A stretch of DNA of 64,000 nt. It comes from an uncultured delta proteobacterium. GTDB taxonomy: Bacteria > Desulfobacterota > Binatia > Bin18. Made by a program: the position numbers and the translations under genes. Where the stretch lies: the NCBI GenBank assembly GCA_963733195.1, contig CAVTCR010000006.1, positions 39,947 through 103,946 of the forward strand. The letters are read 5' to 3'. Shown here in pieces: positions 58,482 through 64,000 of the stretch. Position 1 is the stretch's first letter. Every line of letters starts with the position of its first letter. The notes below the pieces were generated by a model. That model was not told the DNA's origin. It ran no database searches and worked only from the letters and a program-made list of their open reading frames with translations.

Positions 58482-58547
58482 GTCTAACGTTCGCGTTGAG
58501 CGGCACGCCGTTCTTCAGCGCGTCCACTCTCGAACGCGCTGTTAGAC
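58482..58547 (-). other. Intact attC site (attC-2, 66 bp)
   Basis: Minus strand GTCTAAC (R'') ... GTTAGAC (R'), imperfect palindrome; upstream gene stop TAA lies inside R''. Confidence 0.9.
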
Positions 58548-59035: not shown

Positions 59036-59128
59036 GGCTAACGCTTAGCAGCCGCCGCCGCAGCCTAAACGTGCCTTTTCAGGTTCAGCAGGAACCGCTC
59101 GCGGGCTGCGGTCGGCCTGCCTGCTGTT
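59036..59128 (-). other. attC-3, main part (remainder at 60764-60771), split by IS110
   Basis: Plus strand GGCTAAC...CCGCAGCC/GGCTGCGG...TGTT; joining to AGCC at 60768 rebuilds a 97-bp GGCTAAC...GTTAGCC palindrome. Confidence 0.85.
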
Positions 59129-59210
59129 GATACTCATCCAGGCCTCCTTTGCTGCAAGTGGCAGCGGAAGAATGGCTGTCTCCCAACAATCCATTCTACA
59201 AGGAGGATCC

Positions 59211-60261
59211 CTGGAGGAATTTCTACACACGACACCATAGACATTATTGCGGCATCGATCTACCTGCGACGGCGATGTCCGTTTGCATCCTCGATCAAGC
59301 CGGGACGATCCTCGTTCATAAGAATCTGCCGACAACCCCCAAAGCGTTTTTGCGCGTCATTGCTTCCTATCGGGAGGATGTGGTCGTCGGCGTCGCGTGT
59401 ATCTTCACGTGGTAGTGGCTGGCGGACTTGTGTGCGAAGGAAGGGATTGCCGTTGTCCTGGGACACGCACTCTATATGCAGGCGAGTCATGGCGGCAAAG
59501 CCAAGAACGATAAGATTGATGCGCACAAGAGCGCGCTGTGGTTACGCGGCGGGATGATGCCCCACGCCTATGTCTATCCGGCCGAGCTGCGCGCCACCCG
59601 AGAGTTACTCTATCGTCGGTGTCATCTGGTGCAGAAACGGGGCGAACTCTTCGCCCACATCCAGAATACGAATAGTCAGGAGAACTTGACGGCAATTGGG
59701 AAAAAGTTGACGTACAAAGCCACTCGAGCGGGAGTCGCCGAGCATGTTCCCGCTCCGAGCATACGCAAAACCATTGAGATGGATGTGTCCCTCATGGATC
59801 ACTACGATCAATTGCTCGGTGAAGTGGACCTATTATATATTCCGCGCACCGCCAAACTGCACGAGGTGCAGACCTTCACGCCGTTACAATCCGTACCCGG
59901 GATTGGGCAGATGCTGGCTCGGGTTCTGCGCTATGAGAGTCAGGACAGCGCGCGCTTTCCGCGCATGCAAGACTTCGTTTCCTCTTGCCGCCTAGTGCAG
60001 TACGCCAAGGAGTCGAATGGCAAACGGCTGGGCACCTCGGGCAAAAAGACTGGCAACAGCCATCTCCGCTGGGCGTTTGCGGAAGCCGCCATACTCTTTA
60101 TTCGGCAGAGCCAACCCGGAAAAGCGTATTTTGCCACCCTCGAACACCAACATGGCAAAGCCAAAGCGCTCACGGTACTCGCCCACAAGTTGGGCCGGGC
60201 CGTGTATTACCTGCGCACGTGCGAACACGCGTTTGATCCCCAACGCTTTGTGACCGCGTAA
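59211..60261 (+). pseudogene. IS110 DEDD transposase/recombinase, degenerate
   Basis: YCGIDL, KNDKIDA, LQSVPGIG, ESNGK, GNSHLRWAFAEAA; in-frame TAG at 59413, no ATG, expected catalytic Glu reads Ala. Confidence 0.85.
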
Positions 60262-60784: not shown

Positions 60785-61138
60785 TCACTCCCCGAACGGT
60801 AAGAAGATGACCTGATTCATTAGATCTGCAGGTTCTCCAGCCTTCGCGATCAGTTCTAGATCTCCTACACATCTCCCGATCGACACGCGGAGTTGATGAG
60901 CATACACTATACCGTGGAATAGGAGGCCTGCACTTTGTCGTTTCGTCGCCTCGACTAAGAGATCGTCATCGCGTGTGAACAACACCCGCTCCAATTCACC
61001 AGCCCGATCCAGGAGCCTCACATCCTCAAGTTCACTGGTGCCATCTTCATAGGCAGTGAGCACCTCTACGCCACGGAGCCGAAGGCCGAGGGTGATTGTT
61101 CGGGGCACGTGTTGATCCATGTAGAAGGCAATGGGCAT
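60785..61138 (-). CDS. DUF5615 PIN-like toxin (cassette TA module)
   Basis: FYMDQHV, D..LL..A....RVLFTRDDD. Confidence 0.85.
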   Translation of the reverse strand: MPIAFYMDQHVPRTITLGLRLRGVEVLTAYEDGTSELEDVRLLDRAGELERVLFTRDDDLLVEATKRQSAGLLFHGIVYAHQLRVSIGRCVGDLELIAKAGEPADLMNQVIFLPFGE

Positions 61139-61449
61139 TAACTCAGCCTTCGAGCCTTCAGTTGCTCTACCAGTGAAGAGGAAGGCAACGTTTGCTGTAA
61201 CTGGTCAACGAGCTGTAGCCGTCGTTCCATGTCTCGATCAAGCTCGGCTTTATGATCCCAATAGTATGCCAGCGCCGAGTGGATCTGTCCCATCGTCAGA
61301 TGAGGATGTTGAAAATGTAACTCTTCTGGGCTCCAGCCATAGGCGAGTTGATCCAAAACAAGTTCAATGACTTTCACTCGCGTGCCCGCAATCAACGGTA
61401 CGTGTGCCTCATCTAGGATAATATGTTCGTAACGCGTTTCGCTCAGCAC
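61138..61449 (-). CDS. DUF433 antitoxin (cassette TA module)
   Basis: PLIAGTRVKV, GWSPEEL..QHPHLT..QI.SALAYY.DH; AAGGAGG RBS, GTG start, 1-bp overlap with the toxin. Confidence 0.88.
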   Translation of the reverse strand: MLSETRYEHIILDEAHVPLIAGTRVKVIELVLDQLAYGWSPEELHFQHPHLTMGQIHSALAYYWDHKAELDRDMERRLQLVDQLQQTLPSSSLVEQLKARRLS

Positions 61450-61475
61450 TGAAGGAACCTCCTTTCTCCTCAATG

Positions 61476-61505
61476 AGTGTACGTCTGGGATTGTCTCCAT
61501 GTAAA
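61476..61505 (-). promoter_or_regulatory. Sigma70-like promoter internal to the TA cassette
   Basis: Minus strand TTTACA-N18-TACACT. Confidence 0.55.
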
Positions 61506-61517
61506 GAGGATTGCGAC

Positions 61518-61609
61518 GGCTAACGCTGGCGGTCACCGCGAGCTGCCCAACCGAGAACTTTGGCTTCAGCAGAACCGCCACCGGGCAGCAATGCGGTGCA
61601 GCGCCTTGT
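61518..61609 (-). other. attC-4, interrupted at R'' by a group II intron
   Basis: Plus strand GGCTAAC..CACCGC..GCTGCCC/GGGCAGC..GCGGTG..TTGT then the intron start. Confidence 0.85.
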
Positions 61610-61990
61610 GTACGCCCGGCATGGGCGTGAGTGTGGGGGTGCAAGTCCCCTGTAGGAGGTTCACCTTCATGAATCGCAGGATACATGAGGATAACTACAA
61701 GTCCAAGGCAAGGGCGTCACCGCGAGGTGGGGTCTGAAGGAAGCCGGCGACCGCGTTGCGAGGCGAGGAACACGAACGGCATAGAAGGCTCACTTCCCGG
61801 GACGAGTTGGCACAACACAACGAAGTCCTGTGAATCGGGGGATCGGGTAAATGCCGCGCTTGTGCAACGACCACTCACGGTCTTATCCGGGGAGATCTGC
61901 TCCGTGTCCTGGGAAGTGGCGTGCCACGGAAATTGACTAAGCGCGGGCGAAACCGCGCTGAGCCCGGCAGAAGTCAGCCGCGGGCATAGT
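61610..61990 (+). mobile_element. Group IIC-attC-type intron, 5' part (domains I, II and start of III)
   Basis: GTACG-CCCGG start pairing with CCGGG 61887-61891, GGGTGCAAGTCCC, EBS1 loop ACAA (61812) complementary to TTGT, GGAGATCTG..CAGAAGTCAGCCG..CATAGT. Confidence 0.85.
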
Positions 61991-64000
61991 GTGTGCCTGG
62001 CAGTTTGTGTCTCAGGCGGGTTAAAGTCCCGCTCAGCCTGTGGCCACGGGCTGATATCCAAAAGTGGGAGTAACGTCTCACTGGCCAAAGAAAGGGGAAG
62101 GTATGGAGAAGTCTACCCGGGCACGAAGGCGAAAGCTGGACACAGCCAAGACGGACCTGCAGCCCCCTCTTGCAGTTCTTTGGAGGACAGGGTGTCCACC
62201 GCGAGGTGGAATCCGAAGGGTTTGCGGAGAACCACCGGGTCGTACTCGAAGGGAGCTATCCCGCCGAGGAACCGGTCGGCCCAAGCTGGGGAATGGTCGA
62301 GCCTGCACTATGGAGGCGAAGGCGTTGTGGTTCCCCCCCAGCGTACCAAGGTGTGTGCGGGCGACACGGTGGGGAAGAGAGACAAATGACCCAGGGAGAC
62401 CTGGTAGGGTCCGACGGGAAGGTAGGGTTGCGATATGTGGCACTCGCAGACGAAAGGGCGAGTAACGGAGAAGACAAAGAGCGACCTACAGCCCCCGGAG
62501 GTAAGGGGAGATATAAGCGGAAGCGAAGTTCTAACCGAGGCGCTGCCAGGAGTCGGAGCGGGGTACAGTACTCAGGAACGTCGTCAGAACAAAAGGCGGC
62601 GGAGGGTGGCCACGTGCCACTACGCTGGGTGACTCAAACGGTCAGCCAGAGGGGGAAGGCCCTGTGCTTAACTGTGTGTGAGTATATGTCGAGCGACAGC
62701 GAGTAAGTGCTGGTGTGTTGGACAGTTCCCTAGGCGAAAGACCCAACCCCAGTAATGAGGAGACTGTGGAACGACAGGACTTACCATTATCGAAGACCAG
62801 ACCAGGGAAGAGAAAGGTCCATTCCCTGATCGACAAGGTGTATAGTCGCACCAATTTGGCGTTGGCCTGGGAGAAGGTGAAGCAGAACCACGGCAGTGCC
62901 GGAGTCGACGCGGTGACCATCACGGAGTTTGAGGCAAACAAGGCGTTCTATTTGGAACGTCTGCACTGCCAGCTCCGAGATGGGACCTACCAACCACAAC
63001 CTGTGAAGCGAGTTGAGATAGACAAATCCGATGGCGGGGTCAGAAAGCTCGGCATCCCGGTGATTTTCGATCGCGCGGCCAGCAAGCCCTGGTCCAGCGG
63101 ATGGAACCGTCTTCGAGCCGCTCTTTGAGGACTGCTCCTTCGGGTATCGCAAAGGGCGCTCGCCGCACGATGCGATGCGACGTGTGTGGCAGGACTTGAA
63201 TGCAGCTATGGCTGGTGCGTCGATGCCGATCTCCGGACGTTTTTCGACACCATCCCGCAGCCTCGGTTGGTCGACATGATCGCGGAGGAGATCAGTGATG
63301 GGCGGGTCTTGCAATTGATCTGGGCGATGTTACGGGCGGGGACGATGCAGGGAACGTATTGGGAACCCACACTGACTGGTGTACCCCAAGGGGCAGTGGC
63401 CAGCCCAATGTGGTCCAATATCTTCCTGACGCCCTTTGATCGGGCGATGACCGCGGCGGGCTTTCGCCTAACGCGGTGGGCGGATGACTTTGTCGTGCGT
63501 GTAAGACGCGCGGCGAAGCCCAGCGGGCCTTGGCGTTTGCGGAACGGTTTCTCCGCGAGGAACTCGGTGTGACCCTGCATCCGCAGAAGACGCGGATCGT
63601 GCATGTGAGTCATGGCTTTGAGTTCCTCGGGTACAAGGTCAAACAGGGGAAAGGGTATCGGCTGGCGGCGTCCAAGCGGCGGAGCCGGACGAATGCTCAC
63701 AACCTGTATGCCGTACCACGCGAGAAGAGCGTGACGCGCTTCAAGGACCAAATCCGCCGGCTCACCCGGCGCAAGGCTCCGGTGAAATTGCGCGAGATGA
63801 TCCAGCAAGTGAATCCAGTGATTCGCGGCTGGGGCACGTATTACCGCAAGGCGCACGTGCGCCGCCTCTTCATCAGCTGGACGGATGGATCGAGCGCCGC
63901 CTCTACTCGTTTCTCGCCAAACGCTGGCGGAATCATATGTGGCGGCGCTATCCAACCGGGCGGTTCATTAAGGAGTTTGGCCTCGTTCGCCTCATCCATC
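61991..64000 (+). mobile_element. Second (inner) group II intron nested in domain III of the first; runs out of the window
   Basis: GTGTG-CCTGG start pairing with CCAGG 62391-62395; D2 stem CCTGGTAG/CTGCCAGG; AGTCGGAG D3; EBS1 ACTATG (62307) complementary to CATAGT (61985-61990). Confidence 0.8.
62715..64000 (+). CDS. Group II intron reverse transcriptase/maturase (frameshifted, 3' end outside window)
   Basis: KVHSLIDKVY, GSAGVD, R.LGIP...DR, SFGYR, DADLRTFFD, GVPQG..SP, RWADD, GFEFLGY, domain X NPVIRGW..YY. Confidence 0.92.

What the first reader, a model, noticed from the sequence alone, without database searches (positions are those of the whole stretch)
61610..64000. Group II twintron inside an attC site: an intron that appears to target domain III of other group II introns
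Seen: two complete sets of group II domain I-III hallmarks in tandem. The outer set starts at 61610 and breaks off after GGGCATAGT, the conserved domain III motif. A new GUGYG 5' end starts at 61991, with its own D1 closing stem (CCTGG/CCAGG), D2 stem and D3. Its EBS1-position loop ACUAUG (62307-62312) is the exact complement of CAUAGU just upstream, and CCCGC (62260-62264) could serve as EBS2 for GCGGG. Established: EBS1-IBS1 pairing sets group II intron target sites, and bacterial twintrons are known but uncommon. Inference: the inner intron retrohomes into a conserved ribozyme motif, parasitising an integron-targeting intron. The outer intron could only splice and restore attC-4 at the RNA level after the inner one is removed.
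Basis: partly seen in the sequence, partly recalled or inferred. Interest (0 to 1): 0.9.

Follow-up and report, generated by a model that had tools for sequence, protein, structure and literature searches.

The report
Intron lineage that invades other introns
A self-splicing group II intron sits inside the catalytic core (domain III) of another group II intron lodged in an integron recombination site, and its relatives in soil and sediment bacteria mostly sit at the same spot of other introns, so it belongs to a lineage that lives on introns.

Summary
The nested intron is real. At 61610-61990 lies the 5' part of a ~621-nt ORF-less, class-C-like intron inserted in an attC-like repeat. Three uninterrupted paralogues in the same genome give the empty site GGGCAUAGU|AGCGG in the domain III internal loop. 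At 61991 a second intron starts. It encodes a reverse transcriptase without an endonuclease domain and runs to the contig end at 64000, so its last ~140 nt and the outer 3' part are not assembled.

It lies in a hairpin loop of a D1 fold in which 60 of 91 pairs show compensatory changes, and it covaries with the 6 nt upstream of the insertion site across relatives. The proposed EBS2 (CCCGC) is not supported.

The idea that the intron targets domain III holds for the whole lineage. Of 77 copies with enough flank, 63 carry the J2/3-domain III motif of a host intron at the same distance. Rfam finds a second intron's D1 just upstream in 24 of 40 metagenome contigs scanned, and the hosts fall into 26 unrelated sequence clusters.

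The window copy looks like a fossil, with five frame-breaking deletions in the RT gene. I found no description of domain III homing in the papers I could search. The closest precedent homes into the YADD codons of intron RT genes.

The parts
60785..61461 (-). Cassette genes next to the attC: DUF5615 (60785-61138) and DUF433 (61138-61461). They lie on the strand opposite to both introns.
   Evidence: Pfam PF18480 (E 2.2e-7) and PF04255 (E 5.1e-11); ORFs.
61517..61609 (+). attC-like imperfect palindrome (GGCTAAC ... CCTTGT), cut by the outer intron just before its last bases (expected TAGSC).
   Evidence: The same repeat family gives 31 BLAST hits on 18 contigs. An empty copy ends TTGT|TAGCC. 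With that 5-nt end added it folds at -49.8 kcal/mol. One full-length integron integrase lies on C33, 477 bits against a cut-off of 265.
61610..61990 (+). Outer intron, 5' 381 nt: D1, D2, J2/3 and the 5' strand of D3 up to GGGCAUAGU. It belongs to an ORF-less family of ~621 nt.
   Evidence: RF02001 at 61716-61881, 110.8 bits. RF01998 from 61938, cut off. 92% identical to the C56 copy and 88% to the C55 copy. Those copies continue AGCGG..., D5/D6.
61985..61990 (+). IBS1 of the inner intron: CAUAGU, in the 5' strand of the D3 internal loop of the outer intron.
   Evidence: Fold of the intact C56 D3 places GCAUAGUA in an internal loop below a 12-bp hairpin. CATAGT is the commonest flank, 27 of 77 copies.
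61991..64000 (+). Inner intron, first 2010 nt of about 2152. It is cut by the contig end.
   Evidence: 98.5% identical to the C39 copy. The 3' end is defined in C39 and relatives as ...GACUCUAC.
61991..62400 (+). Inner intron domain I, with the 5' GUGUG and the closing stem 61996-62000 / 62391-62395.
   Evidence: RNAalifold on 24 sequences: 91 pairs, 60 of them with compensatory changes. Weak RF02001 match at 62195-62387, 24.7 bits.
62307..62312 (+). EBS1 of the inner intron (ACUAUG), in the loop of hairpin GCCU-GCACUAUGG-AGGC.
   Evidence: Among 24 copies with a different EBS1, 131 of 144 positions pair with their own flank, against 95.8 +/- 4.5 in shuffles (0 of 2000 shuffles reach the observed value).
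62715..64000 (+). Remnant of the intron-encoded reverse transcriptase/maturase, split over at least three frames.
   Evidence: ORFs 62715-63128, 63186-63572 and 63530-64000. One-base gaps relative to C39 at 63077, 63109, 63205, 63498 and 63868. A 94%-alike contig of run X1 has a base at these places, within a base of each (63077, 63110, 63206, 63498, 63868, table 4). The C39 ORF matches RVT_1 and GIIM.

Best explanation
WHAT IT IS. The window ends in a true group II twintron.
- The host is an ORF-less, class-C-like intron of about 621 nt. It is inserted after TTGT in an attC-like site and runs antisense to the cassette genes.
- The guest is a 2.15-kb intron that encodes a reverse transcriptase/maturase without an endonuclease domain.
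- The guest lies between U and A of GCAUAGU|A, the 5' strand of the conserved internal loop of the host's domain III.

HOW THE GUEST FINDS ITS SITE. It belongs to a widespread lineage found in Terriglobia, Sporomusa, Lederbergia and many soil and sediment metagenomes. In this lineage the EBS1 loop is almost always ACUAUG. That loop pairs with YRUAGU, a motif that functional constraint keeps in domain III of many group II introns. The next base, A, is the first base of the 3' exon.

INFERRED MECHANISM. The intron RNP reverse-splices into DNA that matches EBS1, most likely single-stranded DNA at replication forks because there is no En domain. The copies that persist are those inside other introns. 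Such a site costs the cell nothing, exists in several copies, and cannot easily mutate away.

EFFECT ON THE HOST INTRON. While the guest is present the host's domain III is split by 2 kb, so the host ribozyme should fold only after the guest is spliced out.

STATE OF THIS COPY. Both copies in this genome have broken RT genes: five one-base deletions in the window copy and one insertion in the C39 copy. At least eight intact domain III sites in the genome are unoccupied. The window twintron is therefore most likely a decaying relic, not an active element.

SHOWN VERSUS INFERRED. Shown: the nesting, the EBS1-IBS1 pairing and its covariation, the lineage-wide site preference, and the diversity of hosts. 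Inferred: the DNA-level mechanism, the order of splicing, and the safe-haven logic.
For: EMPTY SITE AND NESTING.
- C56, C55 and C66 carry the same outer intron uninterrupted, with D5/D6 at 40.1-40.7 bits.
- The fold of the intact D3 puts GCAUAGUA in an internal loop.

THE JOINT IS NOT AN ASSEMBLY ARTEFACT. L018 and L028 are colinear across it.

THE GUEST IS A REAL INTRON.
- D1 consensus fold: 60 of 91 pairs have compensatory changes.
- RVT_1 and GIIM in the C39 copy. TIGR04416 at 391-407 bits in relatives with intact ORFs.
- In 10 relatives RF00029 at gathering score ends exactly at the 3' end found with nhmmer.

EBS1.
- Own EBS1 and IBS1 pair at 6 of 6 positions in 56 copies, 5 of 6 in 19 and 4 of 6 in 2, out of 77.
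- 24 copies with a non-consensus EBS1 pair at 131 of 144 positions, against 95.8 +/- 4.5 in shuffles (0 of 2000 reach it). Examples: CGAAGC with GCUUCG, CAUCUC with GAGAUG, CCUAUA with UAUAUG.

DOMAIN III PREFERENCE.
- 63 of 77 flanks have G[TG]C at -18 to -16. The chance expectation is 1 in 32 per copy.
- The base at +1 is A in 47 of 51 D3-type copies.
- A second intron's D1-D4 hit lies upstream in 24 of 40 metagenome loci scanned and in L006, L007, L014, L015 and L017.
- The host's own D5/D6 lies downstream at gathering score in L014, L042, L072, L087 and L091.

INDEPENDENT INSERTIONS.
- The 300-nt upstream flanks of 48 D3-type copies form 26 BLAST clusters.
- Nearly identical guests L006 and L007 sit in hosts that match different Rfam models.
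- The D3 state is spread over the whole D1 tree. Copies with a changed EBS1 at other sites form one derived clade.

DECAY OF THE WINDOW COPY., and table 4.

UNOCCUPIED SITES IN THIS GENOME..
Against: - The 3' half of the window twintron is not in the assembly. Two D5/D6 sets and a resumed D3 cannot be shown for this copy.
- The other copy in this genome (C39) lies after a cobW-like gene, in a 75-codon ORF that matches no Pfam family. No intron is detectable around it.
- Five Terriglobia copies (L008, L009, L011, L012, L016) show no host-intron Rfam hit. By the flank motif, four of them count as non-D3. L012 (GTC) and C39 (GGC) carry the motif and are counted among the 63.
- Six or seven paired bases cannot explain the preference alone. 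YRTAGTA occurs 1245 times in this genome, while I picked out about nine D3 sites (eight unoccupied, one occupied) by eye among 132 loose-pattern hits. I did not identify what adds specificity, and no EBS2 was found.
- 5 of the 40 scanned loci have a D3-like flank but no upstream Rfam hit. 4 more had under 120 nt of upstream sequence.
- Covariation counts include related copies at one shared site (L044, L045, L089, L097), so the events are fewer than the cells.
- The single-base deletions could be assembly errors near a contig end. No raw reads of this genome were available.
Confidence: 0.88

Rival explanations
1. Survivorship, not aiming. The intron inserts at any short YRUAGU|A match. Copies inside other introns are simply the ones that do no harm, so they are the ones that remain. 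The domain III excess is then made by selection after insertion and not by target recognition beyond EBS1.
For: - No EBS2 or other pairing to the flank was found.
- Recently expanded, nearly identical copies in two Terriglobia MAGs lie largely outside recognisable introns: L008, L009, L011, L012 and L016 against L006, L007 and L010.
- C39 lies outside an intron.
Against: - YRTAGTA occurs 1245 times in this genome against about nine D3 sites picked out by eye. A 63 of 77 share at D3 would need very strong purging.
- EBS1 ACUAUG is kept in 53 of 77 copies across three phyla and the metagenome copies, as expected if the D3 motif is the maintained target.
- Two of the six non-intron sites (C39, L012) still carry G[TG]C at -18 to -16. 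This is a weak hint that the upstream motif counts.
Confidence: 0.3
2. Composite spread. The window twintron did not arise by insertion in this genome. It arrived or multiplied as one unit, either by retrohoming of the outer intron with the guest inside or by vertical descent of an old nested pair.
For: L018 and L028 carry the same guest sub-lineage at the same site, and L028's host aligns with the window's outer intron. Divergence looks similar across host and guest parts, 85-91% over the whole colinear stretch. The three other outer copies in this genome are empty.
Against: - L018's host differs from the window's host over the first ~100 nt and in its 5' flank.
- For the lineage as a whole, 26 unrelated host clusters need many separate insertions.
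- This rival concerns the history of one copy. It does not contradict domain III homing.
Confidence: 0.35
3. Assembly chimera. The contig joins an outer-intron fragment to a copy of the C39 intron by error at a repeat.
For: - The contig ends inside the repeat.
- The window copy has seven one-base gaps relative to C39.
- No public run holds more than 0.34 of the sampled words.
Against: - Colinear joints in two independent assemblies.
- The same kind of joint in dozens of relatives.
- The joint falls exactly at a 5' GUGUG, after a perfect 6-nt match to the intron's own EBS1.
- The window copy differs from C39 by 22 substitutions inside the intron, so it is a separate copy.
Confidence: 0.03

Closest known systems
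B-like (class D) lineage M.a.I5 / UA.I3 / P.l.I2 / B.th.I3, which homes into the YADD-coding motif of RT genes of other group II introns (passages of PMC2504315; review passage in PMC4424553)
   Same: - An En-less intron lineage whose IBS matches a conserved, constrained motif of other group II introns.
- It therefore forms twintrons repeatedly and in distant hosts.
- It sometimes lands in a look-alike site outside an intron. B.th.I3 sits in a retron-like RT gene.
   Different: - There the target is protein-coding sequence in domain IV (RT active site), recognised through IBS1 plus IBS2.
- Here the target is the ribozyme itself, the domain III internal loop. No EBS2 was found.
- The IEP here is nearest to class C RTs among solved structures.
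- I did not test whether the two lineages are related.
Thermosynechococcus elongatus twintrons, TeI3c in TeI4c (passages of PMC2882425)
   Same: An inner intron inserted at a conserved site of a related mobile intron. The authors propose this as a way to proliferate, and inner and outer introns can move separately.
   Different: The site there lies between the first two ATGs of the IEP ORF in domain IV. The inner introns are ORF-less and use the host's IEP, and the case is one genome and one intron family. Here the guest brings the IEP and the host is often ORF-less.
Trichodesmium erythraeum twintron (abstract and passages of PMC4649490)
   Same: A bacterial group II intron nested in the ribozyme part of another. 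Sequential splicing was shown there by experiment, which is the behaviour inferred here.
   Different: That is a single locus, with the inner intron in domain I of the host and inside a protein-coding gene. No lineage-wide site preference was reported in the passages I read.
Group IIC-attC introns such as S.ma.I2 (abstract and introduction passages of PMC3001079)
   Same: For the outer intron: inserted in an attC site, oriented opposite to the cassette genes, class-C-type D1 (RF02001), short IBS1 and no EBS2.
   Different: The outer intron here has no ORF (621 nt), so its place in the IEP-defined IIC-attC clade cannot be tested. I found no ORF-less IIC-attC intron described in the passages I read.

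Membership tests
Group II intron (inner element, 61991-64000) | 5' GUGYG and a domain I fold supported by covariation | tested here: met
   GUGUG at 61991. Relatives start GUGCG or GCGUG. 60 of 91 consensus pairs have compensatory changes.
Group II intron (inner element, 61991-64000) | EBS1 loop complementary to the 5' exon end (IBS1) | tested here: met
   ACUAUG pairs with CAUAGU at 6 of 6 positions. Covariation across 24 variant copies, 0 of 2000 shuffles reach it.
Group II intron (inner element, 61991-64000) | Domains V and VI at the 3' end | not testable with these tools
   The contig ends at intron position 2010. In the C39 copy a D5-like helix is visible by eye but RF00029 gives no match at E<=1. 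In 10 relatives RF00029 reaches gathering score and ends at the 3' boundary.
Group II intron (inner element, 61991-64000) | Intron-encoded RT with maturase (X) domain in domain IV | tested here: inconclusive
   RVT_1 (E 1.7e-32) and GIIM (E 4.8e-21) in the C39 copy. The window copy is split over at least three frames. Relatives have intact ORFs of 423-451 codons, TIGR04416 at 391-407 bits.
Twintron (intron nested in an intron) | Host intron sequence on both sides of the guest, and an uninterrupted form of the host | tested here: inconclusive
   The 5' side and the uninterrupted paralogues are met. The 3' side is absent from the assembly. Both sides are met in relatives L014, L042 and L087. L018 resumes with 20 nt after the guest's 3' end.
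Group IIC-attC intron (outer element, 61610-61990) | Inserted in an attC site, antisense to the cassette genes | tested here: met
   attC-like palindrome family. An IntI gene is in the genome. The DUF433/DUF5615 genes lie on the minus strand. The definition is from PMC3001079.
Group IIC-attC intron (outer element, 61610-61990) | Class C ribozyme features | tested here: met
   RF02001 at 110.8 bits with a short EBS1 hairpin (loop GCACAACA). The ~621-nt paralogues have D5/D6 at gathering score. That RF02001 stands for class C is my reading: class-C-like hosts behind terminators match it at 148-152 bits.
Group IIC-attC intron (outer element, 61610-61990) | IEP falls in the monophyletic IIC-attC clade | not testable with these tools
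   The family has no ORF. The related ORF-bearing copy on C64 is truncated, and no reference set of classified IEPs was at hand.
Domain III-homing lineage (proposed here) | Copies sit after YRUAGU in the domain III internal loop of unrelated host introns | tested here: met
   63 of 77 flanks. 24 of 40 scanned loci with a host D1-D4 hit upstream. 26 host clusters.

The most novel reading that the evidence does not exclude
This may be a large, old and so far undescribed lineage of 'hyperparasitic' group II introns. Their EBS1 is fixed on the catalytically constrained internal loop of domain III, so any group II intron of several structural types is a potential host. The guest may carry the only RT in the pair, since many hosts are ORF-less, which raises the possibility that host and guest depend on each other. 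Because the target is a single-stranded loop of an abundant ribozyme RNA, first entry could even occur by reverse splicing into host intron RNA and not into DNA.
Probability: 0.45. Interest if true: 0.85.

Novelty: new variant of a known kind. Interest (0 to 1): 0.74.

Why it matters
Twintrons in bacteria are treated as rare curiosities (PMC4649490, PMC4424553). The only lineage-level case I could read about targets RT coding sequence.

A lineage aimed at the ribozyme core would show three things:
- Group II introns carry their own specialised parasites.
- The conservation that makes domain III work also makes it a stable landing site.
- Annotation pipelines that skip nested introns (PMC4028801, PMC8919778) miss a whole class.

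It also offers a natural system for studying three questions:
- ordered splicing;
- whether an ORF-less host uses the guest's maturase;
- how a 6-7-nt pairing reaches high site fidelity without EBS2.

For integron biology, an attC site blocked by a nested pair of introns is a cassette boundary that probably can no longer recombine.

Tried and rejected
3' HALF IN THE ASSEMBLY. BLASTN of the full C56 outer intron and the full C39 inner intron against all 87 contigs found no contig with the inner 3' end joined to the outer 3' part. RF00029 hits near contig ends (C26, C64, C1) are other introns by BLAST.

READS.
- No public run holds more than 0.34 of the sampled words of 61500-62500.
- Laying four runs gave only short contigs of mixed relatives.
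- One 163-nt contig of X2 covers 61967-62100 with 1 other letter. Only 24 letters lie left of the joint, below the tool's 31-letter criterion, so I do not count it as bridging.
- No conclusion on expression, habitat or strain is drawn from these runs.

EBS2.
- I inspected the aligned D1 between the kappa-like region and EBS1 against flanks -7 to -22.
- A CGAR motif 2-4 nt upstream of IBS1 appears in six Terriglobia sites. It could pair with UCG in GUAAUCGA, but only 3-4 bp, and it is absent from D3 sites. I left it open.

CLASS OF THE INNER INTRON. Not assigned. The PDB comparison shows only that class C RTs score highest (227 bits, against 159 for a CL RT and 132 for LtrA). Classes A, B, D, E and F have no solved RT in that list.

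RFAM D1-D4 FAMILIES AS HOST CLASSES. I rejected this as a count of host classes. RF02003 and RF02005 can hit adjacent parts of one intron (L013). I clustered upstream flanks instead.

LOOSE GENOME-WIDE PATTERN FOR D3 SITES. It gave 132 hits, mostly chance. Only those with a D3-like 3' flank were used, picked by eye.

LITERATURE.
- Nine searches were answered. They used twintron, domain III/DIII/domain 3, IIC, another group II intron, inserted into or within domain III, hyperparasit and related terms. None turned up a report of a bacterial intron lineage homing into domain III.
- Term look-ups inside PMC3552965, PMC12584367 and PMC8637638 found nothing relevant.
- Three key papers are not held and were not seen: PMC2525955 (Simon 2008), PMC101233 and PMC1370365 (Dai and Zimmerly 2002, 2003).
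Any of these may already list such twintrons.

Full report
WHERE THE WINDOW LIES

The window is the last 64 kb of contig C6 of a 6.9-Mb, 87-contig assembly, and base 64000 is the contig end. The finding therefore sits at an assembly break inside a repeat.

THE OUTER INTRON

Rfam finds one strong match in the whole window: RF02001 (group-II-D1D4-3) at 61716-61881, 110.8 bits against a gathering score of 32. With relaxed thresholds, RF01998, which models D2, J2/3 and the start of D3, matches from 61938. It is cut after GGGCAUAGU at 61990, scoring 24.6 bits.

BLASTN against the same genome shows that 61519-61990 has paralogues on three contigs:
- C56, 92% identical;
- C55, 88% identical;
- C66, 89-95% identical in two pieces.

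A more distant relative lies on C64 at 70%. Reading these copies shows a 621-nt intron without any ORF. After GGGCAUAGU it continues A-GCGGUCGGCCUC-UUCC-GAGGCCGACCGC-GAAGGACCGAAC, then a short domain IV, then D5/D6. RF00029 matches the three copies at 40.1-40.7 bits (gathering score 40), and RF01998 now matches end to end.

The C66 copy is itself broken by an IS630-like element flanked by a TA duplication, and the C64 relative carries an RT gene cut off by an unrelated recombinase gene. These paralogues are the empty site that proves an insertion in the window copy.

A fold of the intact C56 D3 places GCAUAGUA in the 5' strand of an internal loop, between a short basal stem and a 12-bp hairpin. 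The guest sits between the U and the final A.

THE attC CONTEXT

The 93 nt before 61610 form an imperfect palindrome that starts GGCTAAC. The same repeat gives 31 BLAST hits on 18 contigs.

- An empty copy on C55 ends TTGT|TAGCC.
- The paralogous introns are flanked ...TGT|intron|TAGGC, or a close variant.
- Two more such sites lie at 58482-58547 and 59036-59132.
- The genome has one full-length integron integrase on another contig, 477 bits against a cut-off of 265.
- The neighbouring DUF433 and DUF5615 genes are on the minus strand, so the intron is antisense to the cassette.

This matches how group IIC-attC introns are described (PMC3001079, abstract and introduction passages). Because the family has no ORF, its membership of the IEP-defined IIC-attC clade cannot be tested.

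THE INNER INTRON

From 61991 the sequence is 98.5% identical to a second copy on C39. There the 5' flank is ...CAAUCCUGUAGC and the element ends ...GACUCUAC, about 2152 nt in all.

The C39 ORF matches RVT_1 and GIIM and ends right after the maturase domain, so there is no endonuclease domain. Among solved structures the closest RTs are class C ones. I could not assign a class.

Aligning the two copies inside the intron shows 22 substitutions and seven one-base gaps in the window copy:
- Five gaps (63077, 63109, 63205, 63498, 63868) break the RT frame in the window.
- At a sixth (63696) the extra base is in C39 and breaks its frame.
- The seventh (62434) lies outside the ORF.

A 94%-alike contig from run X1 has a base at the five window gaps, within a base of each place, and at 62435. 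It lists no extra base at 63696 (table 4). That fits real decay in both copies, although assembly error cannot be excluded without reads of this organism.

RELATIVES AND THEIR FLANKS

A scan of one genome per species with the RT returned 12 loci in two Terriglobia MAGs, two Sporomusa MAGs and Lederbergia lenta. A metagenome scan with an alignment of five RTs found 566 relatives among 600 candidate stretches, and the best 80 were kept.

An nhmmer profile of the first 440 nt placed the 5' boundary in 78 copies. With the window and C39 that makes 80, of which 77 have at least 20 nt of flank.

The flanks are striking. Most read like ...GAGAAGUCAGCAGAGGYCAUAGU|, ...GGGAGUCGGA-N6-YRUAGU|, ...GAGGAGUCACAC-N4-GCAUAGU| or ...GGUGGCGGA-N6-CGUAGU|. 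That is J2/3 plus the 5' strand of domain III of a group II intron.

Counts:
- 63 of 77 have G[TG]C at -18 to -16, where chance gives 1 in 32 per copy.
- A 3' profile placed the 3' ends. The first base after the guest is A in 47 of 51 D3-type copies.
- The following sequence usually reads as a hairpin and then GGAGSGAAGG, the other strand of the D3 loop.

INDEPENDENT CHECK WITH RFAM

At gathering thresholds a second intron's D1-D4 family hit lies just upstream of the guest in L006, L007, L014, L015 and L017. It also does so in 24 of the 40 metagenome loci I could scan. Those 40 were chosen from the 80 for having the most flanking sequence, and the cap of eight Rfam searches prevented scanning the rest.

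The 16 loci without such a hit divide as follows:
- Seven have a changed EBS1 and a different site.
- Four have under 120 nt of upstream sequence.
- Five have a D3-like flank but no hit. One of these, L072, has the host's D5/D6 downstream.

The host's own D5/D6 lies beyond the guest at gathering score in L014, L042, L072, L087 and L091, and just below gathering score in L007 and L015. In L007 both D5/D6 sets score just under the threshold, 37.0 and 36.4 bits, with the guest's own set ending at its 3' boundary. In L087 the host's set starts about 180 nt after that boundary, so both of these hosts are ORF-less.

In ten relatives RF00029 at gathering score ends exactly at the guest 3' end that nhmmer gave, which supports that boundary.

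All three Firmicutes copies sit after GUCAUAGU of class-C-like introns. The L014 and L017 hosts follow a terminator-like hairpin, and the L015 host is 5'-truncated.

THE HOSTS ARE MANY

The 300 nt upstream of 48 D3-type copies fall into 26 clusters that BLASTN does not link: three clusters of 12, 9 and 4 members, and 23 singletons. Nearly identical guests in one MAG (L006, L007) sit in hosts that match different Rfam models. Spread of one composite element therefore cannot explain the pattern.

A D1 tree built without the EBS1 columns shows D3-type copies throughout. Most copies with a changed EBS1 at other sites form one derived clade, and the Terriglobia copies outside introns form a tight, recent cluster. 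The tree is midpoint-rooted from about 430 columns, so I take it only as a rough guide.

EBS1 AND EBS2

In the RNAalifold consensus of 24 diverse D1 sequences, 60 of 91 pairs show compensatory changes. ACUAUG lies in the loop of hairpin GCCU/AGGC, at the place where the class C model has its EBS1 hairpin.

EBS1 is ACUAUG in 53 of 77 copies. Own EBS1 and IBS1 pair at 6 of 6 positions in 56 copies, 5 of 6 in 19 and 4 of 6 in 2. In the 24 copies with another EBS1, 131 of 144 positions pair with their own flank, against 95.8 +/- 4.5 when flanks are shuffled among them (0 of 2000 shuffles reach it). Clear double changes include GCUUCG with CGAAGC, GAGAUG with CAUCUC and UAUAUG with CCUAUA. Several of these copies share one site, so the independent events are fewer than the counts.

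CCCGC overlaps the 3' strand of a small hairpin whose two strands covary with each other. Five or six of the 24 sequences lack the hairpin, and it does not change with positions -7 to -11 of the flank. I found no other EBS2.

WHAT REMAINS OPEN

- Site fidelity. Seven paired bases do not explain it. YRTAGTA occurs 1245 times in this genome, against about nine domain III sites that I picked out by eye, eight of them unoccupied. Either something else is recognised or selection removes copies elsewhere. I give this as the main rival.
- The C39 copy. It lies after a cobW-like gene, in a small ORF with no Pfam match. Its flank GGCAGA-N6-UGUAGC resembles the D3 context of L006, which may or may not be chance.
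- Self-invasion. The guest's own domain III reads UACAGUA here and AAUAGUA in many relatives, one mismatch from the target. In L092 and L046 a member of the lineage appears to sit in domain III of another member. I saw this only by eye.

COMPARISON WITH WHAT IS KNOWN

- Bacterial twintrons are described as few and mostly intergenic (PMC4424553, passage).
- Known types are the T. elongatus pairs at the start of the IEP ORF (PMC2882425) and the Trichodesmium pair in domain I (PMC4649490).
- Closest in logic is a B-like lineage (M.a.I5, UA.I3, P.l.I2) that homes into the YADD codons of other introns' RT genes (PMC2504315).
- Pipelines that collect bacterial introns set nested ones aside (PMC4028801; PMC8919778).

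In nine answered searches and the look-ups listed under Tried and rejected I found no report of homing into domain III. Three central papers and the Calgary database were out of reach, so I rate the case as a new variant of a known kind and not as categorically new.

VERDICT

- The window copy itself is incomplete in the assembly and probably decaying.

Noticed in passing
L004:1480-2701 (G000 C66 40479-41700): An IS630-like element of about 1.2 kb with inverted ends and a TA duplication interrupts domain I of another copy of the ORF-less outer intron. That copy also lies in an attC-like site.
   Followed up: partly
L005 (G000 C64 1200-4700, minus strand): A related class-C-like intron (RF02001 at 132.8 bits) still has the start of an RT gene. 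It is cut off after about 170 codons by an unrelated gene on the other strand. Its domain III site GGGCAUAGU|A is unoccupied.
   Followed up: partly
window 59149-60261 (+): Transposase-like reading frames split in two (59149-59415 and 59428-60261) lie between attC-like sites. From recall they look like the IS110 family. No family search was run.
   Followed up: no
window 58482-58547 and 59036-59132: Two more attC-like palindromes (GTCTAAC...GTTAGAC and GGCTAAC...GTTGATA). The end of the window is therefore a cassette array, while the only full-length integron integrase is on another contig (C33).
   Followed up: partly
L044, L045, L089, L097 (and L064): A sub-clade of the guest lineage has EBS1 changed to GCUUYG or GUUUUG. 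It sits at one shared non-intron site ...GGCGGAGUACGCGAAGY|U in four or five separate metagenome contigs. This looks like retargeting to a conserved gene, which I did not identify.
   Followed up: no
L092:32 and L092:540; L046:140: Two members of the guest lineage seem nested in one another. The second starts about 508 nt into the first, after a J2/3-D3-like flank of the lineage's own kind. L046 has a similar flank and an EBS1 changed to ACUAUU, which fits AAUAGU.
   Followed up: no
G000 C1:68047, C3:89454, C35:5868, C26:277, C48:5279: Other group II introns of this genome, of families different from the outer intron, have intact CGUAGU|A or CAUAGU|A domain III sites that are not occupied. The genome has at least 11 RF00029 matches.
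   Followed up: partly
L013:3349-3851: One Terriglobia copy lacks the first ~290 nt of the guest. In their place stand RF02003 and part of RF02005 of another intron. This is a rearranged or recombinant nest that I did not resolve.
   Followed up: no
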